64,000 nt of DNA from Eledone cirrhosa (Eukaryota): positions 156,674,001 through 156,738,000 of the forward strand of contig OZ024741.1 of assembly GCA_964016885.1 (NCBI GenBank), given 5' to 3'. Each line of letters begins with the position of its first letter. Within the stretch, counting starts at the first letter, position 1. Positions 39,276 through 44,210 of this stretch are shown here, in pieces. A program made the translations under genes and the position numbers. Below the pieces are notes generated by a model. The model made no database searches. It was given only the letters and a program-made list of their open reading frames with translations, and was not told the origin of the DNA.

Positions 39276-42200
39276 GGGTATCAAAAAATAGAAATGGTAT
39301 TTATAGGTCTCTACAAGTGGTAGGAGAGGGGGTGGGATGGGTGCAGGTCATTGGTTGATAGAAAAGGGAATTCATTAAAAGCTAATTCTACAAAGCTATA
39401 GTTTATTTTTATTTATTTATGTTTTTAGAGTAACAAGGGCAGACAGAATTCTATAAACAGGTTCCGGATGGCATACCAATCCTTGTCATTAAGTTTCTCT
39501 TAAGCTAACAGATGTCTATAAAATCAGTGGGGGGTCAGTCATGGTCGATAGAATTAAAGAAAAGGGAGATTCTTTAAAAGCTAAAATCATTAAGGTTCTA
39601 CTAAGTGACAAAGGTCTAGAGAATTCTGCAGACAGATTCAAAATACTGAGTGCATATCTTACTATTATCTTCGAACTTCTCTCAAACTAATCAACTATAT
39701 GCCAAAAATCAACAGACACATTCACATAAAAAACAAAAAAACATACTCACTCACACACTTACGCGCAACCATAAACACACACACAAACACATATACACAC
39801 ATAAAAACACACACACATATATAAAAATATATTCATATACCTACATATACATTCACACATACACACATACATATATATATATATATATATATATATATAT
39901 ATATACACATGTACGTATATATATATATATATAAATAAATATATATAAGTATATATATACACACATACACACACACATATATATATATATACACATACAC
40001 ACACACATACACATACATACACACATATATACACATATAAATACACTCACACACATACATACAGACACAAATATACATGTGTATACATATACACAGAAAT
40101 ACATATAGACATATATACATACATATACACAGACACATATACACACACACATATATATATATATATATATATATATATATACACATATACACATACACAC
40201 ACATATACATATATATATATATATATATATATATATACATAAAAAAAAACCATACACACACATATATACATATACACACACATACACACAAACACACACA
40301 CACATATATATACATATACATATATATATATATATACATTCATATATATAACCATATACGTATATACATATATACACATGCATACACATATATATATATA
40401 CACATATATACAAATAAACAAATATATACACATACAAACACACACAGACACATACATACATATATATATATATATATATATATATATATATATATATATA
40501 TATATACATATATATATATATATACACACACACATACACACATACATACACATATATAAGGAAAAAGCACCATACATACATATATATATATATATATACA
40601 TATATACATATACACAAATATATACACACACATACATATATATATATATATATATATATATATATATATATATATATATATATATACATATATATATATA
40701 TATATATATATATATATATACACATATATACACATATATACACACACCCACATATATACATATATATACATATACACACATATATACACATATATACATA
40801 TATACATATATATATATATATATATATATAAATATACATATATATATATATATACACATAAACATATACATATATATAAAAATATACACACACATACATA
40901 CACACACACACATATATATACATATATATATATATATATATATATATATATATATATATATATATATATACATATATATATATATATACACATACAAACA
41001 CACATACAAACATACATATACAGATACATATACATAAAAATACATATATACACATATATATACACGTATGTATATACATACATATACATACATATACATA
41101 TATATATATACACACATATATACACATATATATATACATACATATACACACACATACATATTATATATACACATATACACACACATACACACACACATAT
41201 ATACACATACACACACACATACATACATACATATATATCTATATATATATATATATACACATACATACACACACACACATATATATATATACACGCACAT
41301 ACATATATACACATATATATACACACACACACACACACTCACATACACATGCATATGTATAAATATCTATATATACATATATATATATATATATATATAT
41401 ATATATATATATATATATATATATATATATATATATATATATATATATATATATATACATATATATATATATATATATACATATATATATATATATATAT
41501 ATCCATACATATACAAACATACACATTCATACACAGACCTATACATAAATATACACATATATATACAGACATATAACGCATATATACACACATATATACA
41601 CATATATATATATATATATATATATATATATATATATATATATATATATATATATACACATATATATACACACACACGCGCATACACTCATACACACACA
41701 CACACACACACACAAATATATATACACACTCTCTCTCACGCACATATATGTATATATATATATATATATACATATACACATATACAAATATACACATATA
41801 CACACATACACATACACATATATATATATATATATATATCTATATATATATATATATATATATATATACATATACATACAAATACACACACGCATATATA
41901 TATACACACCTGCCCACACAACTATATATATATATATATATATATATATATATATATATATACACACACACACTCACGCACACACATACACACATACACA
42001 CACACACATATATATACATATATACATATATATATATATATATATATATATATATATATATATATACATATATACATATATATATATATATATATATATA
42101 CATATACATATATACACACACACATACATATACATACACACACATACATAAACATACATACATACATACACATACATACATACATACATACATACACATA

Positions 42201-42555
42201 TATACACATATATATATATATACATATATATACACATATATATACATACATATACATACATAAATACACACACATAAAACACATATACACACAAACATAT
42301 ATATATATATATATATATATATATACACACACACACACATACATATACACATATACAAACAAATATATACACATACAAATAAATAGGTACTCAATAAATA
42401 TACGCATATACGCAGGCACATAAAGACACCTCTACAGGCAGAAAATGTAGATACGAAAGAGGTACTCACATAACCATAGTGGCCGTATTTCAGGTTGAGG
42501 AGGGGTGGGGGTAGGGTGGGGAGGAGGTATAGGGGCCAATAGGGGGAGGTCGTTT

Positions 42556-42858
42556 TTAGCCATCGGGCTTTAACACAGGCTTAAAGTGTTTGAAAGTTGC
42601 AAAGTTCTTGTGCATGCAGTTCGAGCAGTGTTCAGAGAGTGTGTTCAGTAGCGGGCCCTTGGCGAATAAAATTTCGTAGCTCTCTGAAATACAAAGGTCG
42701 CAGCCCTTGTGTCCTTCGTTGTAAGAGCGCGCTTTCTGGAGTATTTTCCATTTAAGCGTGAAGGGGGTGGAGTTCCTTTTGAGGTCCCAAACGTAGGAGG
42801 CGAGTGTTGTCTGATTTGATTTATCCGGTCTTCTGAAGGAGTGGGTATGGGCATACCA
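42556..42858 (-). pseudogene. Naiad-type GIY-YIG endonuclease C-terminal 100 aa (not in the ORF track)
   Basis: [58 protein letters not shown] is colinear with the end of the 60988 ORF. Confidence 0.9.
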
Positions 42859-44210
42859 ATATATATATATATATATATATATATATATATATATATATAT
42901 ATATATATATATATTTCCTTATATATGTGTATGTATGTGTGTATGTGTGTGTGTATATATATATATATATATATATGTATATATATATATGTATATATAT
43001 ATATATATATATATATATATATGTGTGTATGTATGTGTCTGTGTGTGTTTGTATGTGTATATATTTGTTTATTTGTATATATGTGTATATATATATATGT
43101 GTATGTATGTGTATATATGTATATACGTATATGGTTATATATATGAATGTATATATATATATATATGTATATGTATATATATGTGTGTGTGTGTTTGTGT
43201 GTATGTGTGTGTATATGTATATATGTGTGTGTATGGGTTTTTTTATGTATATATATATATATATATATTTGTATACGTATGTGTGTGTATGTATATGTGT
43301 ATGTATGTGTGTGTGTATGTGTATATATATATATATATATATATATGTGTGTGTGTATTTGTGTCTGTGTATATGTAGGTATATATGTCTATATGTATTT
43401 CTGTGTATATGTATACACATGTATAATTGTGTTTGTAAGTATGTGTGTGAGTGTATTTATATGTGTATATATGTGTGTGTATGTATGTGTATGTGTGTGT
43501 GTATGTGTATATATATATATATGTGTATGTGTATGTGTGTATATATATACTTATATATATTTATTTATATATATAGAGGTATATGTGTATATATATATAT
43601 ATATATATATATATATATATATATATATATATGTATGTGTGTATGTGTGTATGTATATGTAGGTATATGAATATATTTTTATATATGTGTGTGTGTTTTT
43701 ATGTGTGTATATGTGTTTGTGTGTGTGTTTATGGTTGCGCGTAAGTGTGTGAGTGAGTATGTTTTTTTGTTTTTTTGTGAATGTGTCTGTTGATTTTTGG
43801 CATATAGTTGATTACTTTAAGAGAAGTTCGAAGATAATAGTAAGATATGCACTCAGTATTTTGAATCTGTCTGCAGAATTCTCTAGACCTTTGTCACTTA
43901 GTAGAACCTTAATGATTTTAGCTTTTAAAGAATCTCCCTTTTCTTTAATTCTATCGACCATGACTGACCCCCCACTGATTTTATAGACATCTGTTAATGA
44001 CAAGGATTGGTATGCCATCCGGAACCTGTTTATAGAATTCTGTCTGCCCTTGTTACTCTAAAAACATAAATAAATAAAAATAAACTATAGCTTTGTAGAA
44101 TTAGCTTTTAATGAATTCCCTTTTCTATCAACCAATGACCTGCACCCATCCCACCCCCTCTCCTACCACTTGTAGAGACCTATAAATACCATTTCTATTT
44201 TTTGATACCC

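What the first reader, a model, noticed from the sequence alone, without database searches (positions are those of the whole stretch)
39700..43800. Naiad elements carry multi-kb microsatellite cargo between ORF and ribozyme
In family B, ~2.7 kb of compound (CA)/(TA) sequence lies between the GIY-YIG stop (42556) and the hammerhead, and its idiosyncratic landmarks (aaaaaccatacacac, tacaaataaacaaat, acagaaatacatatagac) are mirrored in the inverted arm. Family G shows the same layout and strand bias (TG-rich on the sense strand). Much apparent simple repeat would then be retrotransposed element sequence containing the element's own (TA)n target, a possible driver of microsatellite load.
Basis: partly seen in the sequence, partly recalled or inferred. 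Interest (0 to 1): 0.7.

Follow-up and report, generated by a model that had tools for sequence, protein, structure and literature searches.

The report
Penelope retroelements ferry kilobase microsatellites
Two jumping-gene families in this animal genome carry a 1-3 kb block of TG/TA repeats inside every long copy examined, likely spreading it by RNA copying and creating landing sites for other jumping genes, but they account for only an estimated 1% or so of the genome's microsatellites.

Summary
B (39142-44277) and G (56932-62863) are Penelope-like elements of the Hydra clade, not Naiads. They have a C-terminal GIY-YIG, RWR/DKT/CxCX5C motifs, no CCHH, and a type I hammerhead motif. The block is heritable element sequence. 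No short-UTR copy appeared among 39 distinct B loci. All 21 G units fetched carry a 1.6-1.9 kb block, 96-99% identical once pure runs are collapsed, while (TA)n runs vary freely. Copies have unrelated flanks, end in (TA)n, and 3 of 18 hammerhead-anchored sites are truncated inside the block, leaving orphan microsatellites. The block is a landing pad: 20 of 34 B blocks hold nested insertions, none from B itself. B and G blocks look independently acquired; 5 of 11 other Hydra 3' ends carry smaller patches, all TG on the sense strand. About 10% of the genome is TA/TG runs; B and G supply roughly 0.5-1.5% of it, so they do not drive the load. TE-borne microsatellites are known, even for Penelope (shrimp). 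The multi-kb, target-containing cargo in Hydra was not found in print. Earlier scan notes identified Hydra elements here but not this cargo. No RNA evidence.

The parts
39009..39141 (.). (TA)n-rich target tract at the 3' end of the main B arm
   Evidence: sequence, TRF
39142..39208 (-). 67-bp 3' extension (tail) of B; equals the start of the next unit in tandem copy L006; absent from the inverted arm
   Evidence: 19 of 50 B ends with tail, 31 without
39225..39275 (-). type I hammerhead motif of B (stem I 6 bp, CUGAUGA, short stem II, GAAA, stem III 3 bp, UA); cleavage untested
   Evidence: 3276 exact genome matches of a 31-mer; the MFE fold of the isolated motif is not the active fold
39209..39725 (-). 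unique 3' part of the B UTR (forms the pseudo-LTR in tandem copies)
39726..42385 (-). B compound (TG)/(TA) microsatellite block, 2660 bp, heritable cargo
42386..42555 (-). 170-bp unique segment after the stop, 99-100% identical in the 20 best copies
42556..42855 (-). last 99 codons of the B ORF (GIY-YIG C-terminal half); copy is 5'-truncated; a near-full open frame of 758 aa (counted stop to stop) is in L006
42860..42913 (.). (TA)27 at the junction between the truncated ORF and the inverted arm
42914..44277 (+). inverted 5'-truncated arm of B: 3' third of the block (to 43776), unique part (43777-44277), hammerhead motif 44211-44261
   Evidence: unique part 2 mismatches in 501; block part 19 in 825 plus 8 gaps
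44277..44461 (.). (TA)n-rich target tract at the 3' end of the inverted arm
60988..62863 (-). G ORF (RT + GIY-YIG), 5'-truncated at about residue 190 of 813
59751..60987 (-). AT-rich first part of the G 3' UTR, with a small TG/TA patch at 60415-60532
57918..59750 (-). G compound (TG)/(TA) block, 1833 bp, heritable cargo
57131..57284 (-). type I hammerhead motif of G with a stem II region of about 115 nt; cleavage untested
   Evidence: read from the sequence; 6716 exact matches of its 3' 27-mer
56932..57917 (-). unique 3' part of G with tail, ending in (TA)n at 56791-56934

Best explanation
B and G are Hydra-clade Penelope-like retrotransposons whose 3' UTR contains a heritable 1-3 kb compound (TG)/(TA) microsatellite, shared by dispersed copies and likely copied with the element through an RNA intermediate into (TA)n targets. 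Shown: the shared block, unrelated flanks, (TA)n at 3' ends, 5' truncation, inverted arms and tails, free length change of the pure (TA)n runs, and nested insertions of other elements in those runs. Inferred: each lineage independently grew its block by slippage from a TA/TG seed in a source copy; reverse transcription starts at the 3' end and runs through the block; copies that stop inside it leave orphan microsatellites. The block is most likely tolerated cargo with no function of its own. Its genomic effect is to make new (TA)n landing sites, a minor share (about 1%) of the genome's microsatellite load.
For: B, 20 best ORF-end hits: 19 of 20 have the 3' unique unit downstream, block span 1.75-5.7 kb in the 17 delimited; two landmarks recur in 19 and 18 of 20. 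B, 20 stop-anchored sites taken at even steps on C1 (one repeats L002): 18 delimited, 722-2328 bp of T[AG] runs, shortest span 934 bp; the other two also begin with the block. G: 18 loci plus a 3-unit tandem, 21 of 21 blocks 1568-1933 bp, 96-99% identical after collapsing runs, pure TA runs 6-43 units. Mid-block landmarks occur 264 (B) and 429 (G) times genome-wide, 0 for reversed controls. 50 of 51 B ends and 17 of 19 G ends are followed by (TA)n; only 1 of 1275 B flank pairs is collinear, at 72%. Orphans truncated in the block: 3 of 18 hammerhead-anchored sites. Nested inserts: 34 in 20 of 34 B blocks, 31 flanked by (TA)n on both sides, 11 with hammerhead motifs, 2 with Hydra ORF pieces, 1 G-like 3' piece; G blocks show no length outliers. 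Independence: B vs G block score 833, below the null of 1203; proteins 41-44% identical; G relative L108 has no block.
Against: No RNA was seen: the run search was dominated by generic microsatellite words and listed no holder on record as RNA, so passage of the block through an RNA intermediate is inferred from insertion anatomy only. The first 20 B and all G loci were the best-scoring hits, so they are biased to young copies. Diverged B copies (91-96% at the ORF end) have a block in the same place but lack most landmarks, so homology of their block is by position. Most hammerhead-bearing B insertions are short: 14 of 18 carry little or no block. Hammerhead activity is untested.
Confidence: 0.87

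Rival explanations
1. The block is a local microsatellite expansion, duplicated later with the inverted arm or by segmental duplication.
For: The genome is about 10% TA/TG runs and compound blocks are common (33 in 590 kb), so any insertion sits among such repeats.
Against: Ordered landmarks recur in copies on several chromosomes with unrelated flanks and different 5' truncation points. No short-UTR copy in 39 B loci or 21 G units.
Confidence: 0.02
2. Hydra-borne cargo is a main driver of the genome's microsatellite load through a feedback loop: cargo makes targets, targets attract more elements.
For: 45% of run bases in this window lie in B/G UTRs. Hydra ORF pieces occur in 12 of 59 sampled 10-kb stretches. 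5 of 11 sampled Hydra 3' ends carry TG/TA patches. B blocks collect nested inserts. Old orphan blocks would be unrecognisable.
Against: No B/G block in 590 kb. Estimated 0.5-1.5% of the load for B+G, and 1724 of 60134 run bases (2.9%) in traceable Hydra UTRs. No excess of sense hammerheads downstream of TG-oriented blocks (3 sense against 5 antisense, 33 blocks).
Confidence: 0.1
3. The block lies in an intron of the pseudo-LTR/UTR that is spliced from the mRNA but retained on retrotransposition, as is known for Penelope 5'-UTR introns.
For: The G block is followed by a long pyrimidine tract ending TTCTTAG. B has GTGAGT upstream and a T tract plus AG downstream. L111 shows a similar tract. PLEs retain introns (PMC8557442).
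Against: All these UTRs are T-rich on the sense strand, so such motifs are expected. No copy with a precise block loss was found. No splice scoring was possible.
Confidence: 0.15
4. The TG-on-sense bias arises at the RNA stage: A-to-I editing of self-pairing (UA)n RNA is fixed as TG by reverse transcription.
For: B, G and all 5 patch-bearing sampled 3' ends are TG-biased on the sense strand. Single interruptions of long TA runs are TG 97: CA 5 in B and 15:1 in G, against 271:218 in the genome sample. Private A>G 20 against T>C 4 in the G block.
Against: Private G>A equals A>G in the block (20:20), as expected from slippage between TA and TG units. No A>G excess in four non-repeat segments. Most genomic compound blocks are internally strand-biased anyway. 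A general T-rich skew of these UTRs explains the direction equally well.
Confidence: 0.12

Closest known systems
Hydra clade of C-terminal EN+ Penelope-like elements, incl. Hydra-1_Obim (Craig et al. 2021, PMC8557442; abstract, part 1 of 4 of Results, sections 9 and 11, passages, supplement part 2 of 59 read)
   Same: Domain order, RWK-like/DKT/CxCX5C motifs, no CCHH, canonical-type hammerhead near the 3' end, (TA)n insertion, partial tandems, inverted 5'-truncated arm, tail at one end.
   Different: Described Hydra consensus sequences are 1.1-3.0 kb with the hammerhead near the end (Hydra-1_Obim 2507 bp, motif at 2403). G's unit is 6.67 kb and B's about 4.5-6 kb, with 2.4-5 kb from stop to hammerhead. 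The Hydra sheet notes no internal microsatellite. The hammerheads differ from Hydra-1_oBim's. The other 58 supplement parts were only keyword-searched.
Naiad elements (same paper)
   Same: (TA)n insertion bias and general PLE insertion anatomy.
   Different: Naiads have an N-terminal GIY-YIG, CxC and DKA motifs, CCHH and no canonical hammerhead; B and G fail these tests.
Penelope elements carrying SSRs in penaeid shrimp (Yuan et al. 2021, PMC7878876; passages read; author name recalled)
   Same: Recent Penelope copies (>98% identical) with syntenic internal SSRs that elongate after transposition; TEs proposed as SSR carriers.
   Different: In the passages read: no clade assignment, no multi-kb compound block between ORF and ribozyme, no strand bias, no nested landing-pad effect. 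Here the carrier share of the load is small.
Microsatellite seeding by LINEs/SINEs (copperhead CR1, PMC3157835, passages read; review PMC3812793, passages read; lepidopteran RTE, PMC2887409, search listing only)
   Same: Retrotransposition disperses microsatellites, which then change length by slippage.
   Different: Those repeats are mostly short terminal tails or proto-microsatellites. Here a mature 1-3 kb mosaic is internal, upstream of a unique 3' end, and contains the element's own target motif.
Chlamys PLEs lengthened by tandem repeats (PMC8557442 section 9)
   Same: PLE length increased by internal tandem repeats.
   Different: Different clade (N-terminal EN, mostly no hammerhead); the repeat type is not given in the section read.

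Membership tests
Naiad | GIY-YIG endonuclease N-terminal to RT | tested here: not met
   RT motif RDD at 393 (B) and 347 (G); GIY-YIG at 630 and 692
Naiad | No canonical hammerhead | tested here: not met
   Type I motifs in B and G
Naiad | DKA motif and CCHH in the endonuclease | tested here: not met
Hydra PLE | C-terminal GIY-YIG in a single ORF | tested here: met
   758-aa frame in L006, 813-aa ORF in L039; Pfam GIY-YIG only weak, E 0.026 for B and none for G
Hydra PLE | RWK motif near the N-terminus | tested here: met
   RIRWRA (B; RIKWRA in L012), RVRWRA (G): RWR, a conservative variant
Hydra PLE | DKT motif | tested here: met
Hydra PLE | CxCX5C linker; CCHH absent; CxxC and CxH around the conserved E and N | tested here: met
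   CNCLNKEAC / [13 protein letters not shown] / CRLC; CMH read by eye in B, CNH in G
Hydra PLE | Canonical hammerhead near the 3' end | tested here: met
   Motif present; activity untested; Rfam listed no hammerhead among the 150 of 259 matches shown
Hydra PLE | Insertion into (TA)n | tested here: met
   50 of 51 B ends, 17 of 19 G ends
Hydra PLE | Generally short (<3 kb); descriptive rather than diagnostic | tested here: not met
   G tandem period 6673 bp; B stop-to-hammerhead 2.4-5.0 kb in the best copies
Hydra PLE | RT phylogeny groups with Hydra references | not testable with these tools

The most novel reading that the evidence does not exclude
Hydra retroelements repeatedly evolve multi-kb internal microsatellites that contain their own target. 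RNA-stage A-to-I editing seeds the TG mosaic on the sense strand, and dispersal of these blocks, including decayed orphans no longer recognisable, has built a substantial part of this genome's 10% dinucleotide load and the niche on which its TA-targeting elements depend.
Probability: 0.1. Interest if true: 0.8.

Novelty: new variant of a known kind. Interest (0 to 1): 0.47.

Why it matters
It shows that a Penelope-type reverse transcriptase likely copies 2-3 kb of self-complementary dinucleotide repeat, and that Hydra elements can be twice their described length. Consensus builders that stop at simple repeats would split such elements into an ORF and an unlinked hammerhead repeat. It gives a natural experiment: hundreds of near-identical copies of one microsatellite mosaic at unrelated loci, for measuring slippage and the rate at which other elements colonise (TA)n. 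It also bounds the idea that such cargo explains the genome's microsatellite richness: for these two families it does not.

Tried and rejected
RNA evidence: the run search with 39142-42855 listed no RNA holder on record, and shares of about 0.25 probably reflect generic microsatellite words. Laying contigs on the non-repeat part of L006 gave nothing for X21-X23, X17 and X20, only scraps for X16 and X19, and broad cover for X15, a run of unknown kind; none of this bears on transcription or splicing. Rfam returned miRNA-like chance matches to repeats, all below gathering score in the 150 shown. MFE folding of the isolated hammerhead motifs did not give the active fold, so it is uninformative. 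Directional A-to-I signature: not found, A>G equals G>A. Self-insertion of B into its own block: 0 of 34; the one B hit is the copy's own diverged 3' end. Hammerhead enrichment downstream of genomic compound blocks: none. Block homology between B and G: rejected. Paper searches found no description of multi-kb internal microsatellites in Hydra elements; subscription papers and Repbase reports are not covered. The O. vulgaris repeat annotation (PMC13282606, parts 1-2 of 3 read) lists Penelope families without such anatomy; its consensus library was not seen. The host species was not determined; a cephalopod is a guess.

Full report
Observation. The window lies on C2 of a 3.0-Gb genome. On the minus strand a 99-codon GIY-YIG C-terminal fragment ends at TAA 42558-42556. 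It is followed by 170 bp of unique sequence, a 2660-bp compound TG/TA block (42385-39726), about 450 bp of unique sequence, a type I hammerhead motif (39275-39225), the element end at 39209, a 67-bp tail and (TA)n. An inverted arm (42914-44277) repeats the 3' third of the block and the hammerhead without the tail. Two of the three named landmarks are mirrored exactly and one with a single difference. The arms differ at 2 of 501 unique bases but at 19 of 825 block bases plus 8 gaps, so the block changes several times faster. G has the same order, with a 1833-bp block in a 3.7-kb stop-to-hammerhead stretch and a motif with a very long stem II region.

Identity. A near-full B frame (758 aa, L006) and the G ORF (813 aa, L039) have RT before GIY-YIG, RWR, DKT, CxCX5C, CxxC and CxH, and no CCHH. 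Craig et al. 2021 (PMC8557442) define Naiads by an N-terminal endonuclease and lack of canonical hammerheads and Hydra by the features above. So these are Hydra elements. The Hydra sheet of their supplement lists lengths of 1.1-3.0 kb; G's tandem period is 6673 bp.

Is the block element sequence? Of the 20 best B hits fetched (of 40 listed), 19 have the 3' unique unit downstream; the 17 delimited blocks span 1752-5740 bp. Two landmarks recur in 19 and 18 of 20. To reduce bias I took 20 of the first 100 exact stop matches on C1 at even steps; one repeats L002. Eighteen are delimited, with 722-2328 bp of T[AG] runs (median 1613) and a shortest span of 934 bp. L041 runs into an assembly gap and L055 has no 3' unit within 9 kb, but both begin with the block. 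More diverged copies keep a TG/TA block but lose most landmarks. For G, 18 loci and a 3-unit tandem all carry the block: 1568-1933 bp, 96-99% identical after collapsing runs, with pure TA runs of 6-43 units. Exact genome counts: B hammerhead 3276, B stop 578, B mid-block landmark 264, G mid-block landmark 429, G hammerhead 6716, each with 0 reversed controls.

Mode of spread. 50 of 51 B ends and 17 of 19 G ends meet (TA)n; flanks are unrelated (26 of 1275 pairs share any repeat, 1 is collinear at 72%); 5' truncation points vary; inverted arms and one-sided tails are common. This is the known anatomy of PLE retrotransposition. An RNA intermediate that includes the block is inferred, not shown. 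Of 18 hammerhead-anchored B sites, 14 carry little or no block, 1 is complete and 3 (L066, L071, L073) start inside the block, leaving about 1 kb of orphan microsatellite in unrelated DNA.

Consequences. 20 of 34 B blocks hold 34 nested inserts; 31 have (TA)n on both sides, 11 carry hammerhead motifs, 2 carry Hydra ORF pieces, 1 matches the 3' part of G, and none is a B copy. G blocks, whose ORF ends are 100% identical to the window's, show no length outliers. This fits colonisation with age.

Scale. In 59 evenly spaced 10-kb stretches, 10.2% of bases are in TA/TG-type runs. No B or G block was found, and sense hammerheads are not enriched downstream of the 33 compound blocks (3 against 5 antisense). 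Copy counts give 1.5-4.5 Mb of cargo, 0.5-1.5% of the load (rough, with 1500 copies each assumed as the upper case). Hydra ORF pieces occur in 12 of the 59 stretches. Of 11 3' ends read, 5 carry TG/TA patches of 140-928 bp (two from one family) and 6 almost none, in sum 2.9% of sampled run bases. The window's 45% is a local excess.

Origin and strand bias. B and G blocks align worse than simulated sequence, the proteins are 41-44% identical, and a G relative has no block (L108), so independent gains are likely. All 7 patch-bearing cases are TG-on-sense. I tested A-to-I editing as a cause: A>G exceeds T>C in the G block (20:4) but equals G>A (20:20), and four non-repeat segments show no excess. 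Slippage plus a general T-rich UTR skew is the simpler account; editing as the first seed is not excluded. Splice-like signals at the block edges leave an intron reading open.

Comparison. TE-borne microsatellites are established (PMC3812793; PMC3157835), and recent shrimp Penelope copies carry syntenic SSRs (PMC7878876). Nine paper searches found no multi-kb, target-containing block between ORF and ribozyme in Hydra elements. Earlier scan notes on this genome name Hydra elements and (TA)n targeting; a word search and a sequence search found none on this cargo. Verdict: real, a new variant of a known kind, moderately interesting; the genome-driver claim is not supported.

Noticed in passing
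L063-L080 (B hammerhead sites on C1); window 8390-8667: 9 of 18 hammerhead-anchored B insertions begin within about 10 bp of the hammerhead's 5' edge, 5 of them as head-to-head fold-backs of about 200 bp. The search pattern starts there, so selection contributes, but the pile-up is sharp.
   Followed up: partly
L061-L062 (G000:C1:83.68-83.69 Mb): A B copy followed by 11 further tandem units of about 1.08 kb, each with about 450 bp of the block, the unique 3' part, hammerhead and tail: a retrozyme-like array containing microsatellite.
   Followed up: partly
window 57131-57284; L108: The G hammerhead motif has a stem II region of about 115 nt, conserved in shorter form in a diverged relative that lacks the block and has tandem SINE-like inserts next to the core.
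   Followed up: partly
window 35666-39141, 44725-46662, 51662-54141: Another hammerhead-bearing family (core at 38757, 44905, 35832, 53758) with internal tandem repeats of about 510 bp and inverted arms, also in (TA)n.
   Followed up: no
L111:1990-4431 and L117: A third Hydra family with a 2.4-kb UTR holding about 0.9 kb of dispersed TG-on-sense patches: a possible intermediate stage of block growth.
   Followed up: partly
L075: A B 3' end abuts sequence resembling the G block, suggesting B inserted into a G-type cargo tract.
   Followed up: no
window 47523-51660: LTR retrotransposon remnant (gag/protease/RT/integrase-like frames, terminal repeats 47523-47788 and 51380-51660); names from reading the ORFs, not searched.
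   Followed up: no
window 14365-17498: Broken non-LTR (L1/Tx1-like) RT and endonuclease frames on the minus strand; name from reading the ORFs, not searched.
   Followed up: no
window 60988-62863; L039: The G protein has an insertion of about 90 aa, rich in N/K/T, between RT and the linker, absent from B; at least 40 genomic copies of its ORF end are 100% identical, so the family is very young.
   Followed up: partly
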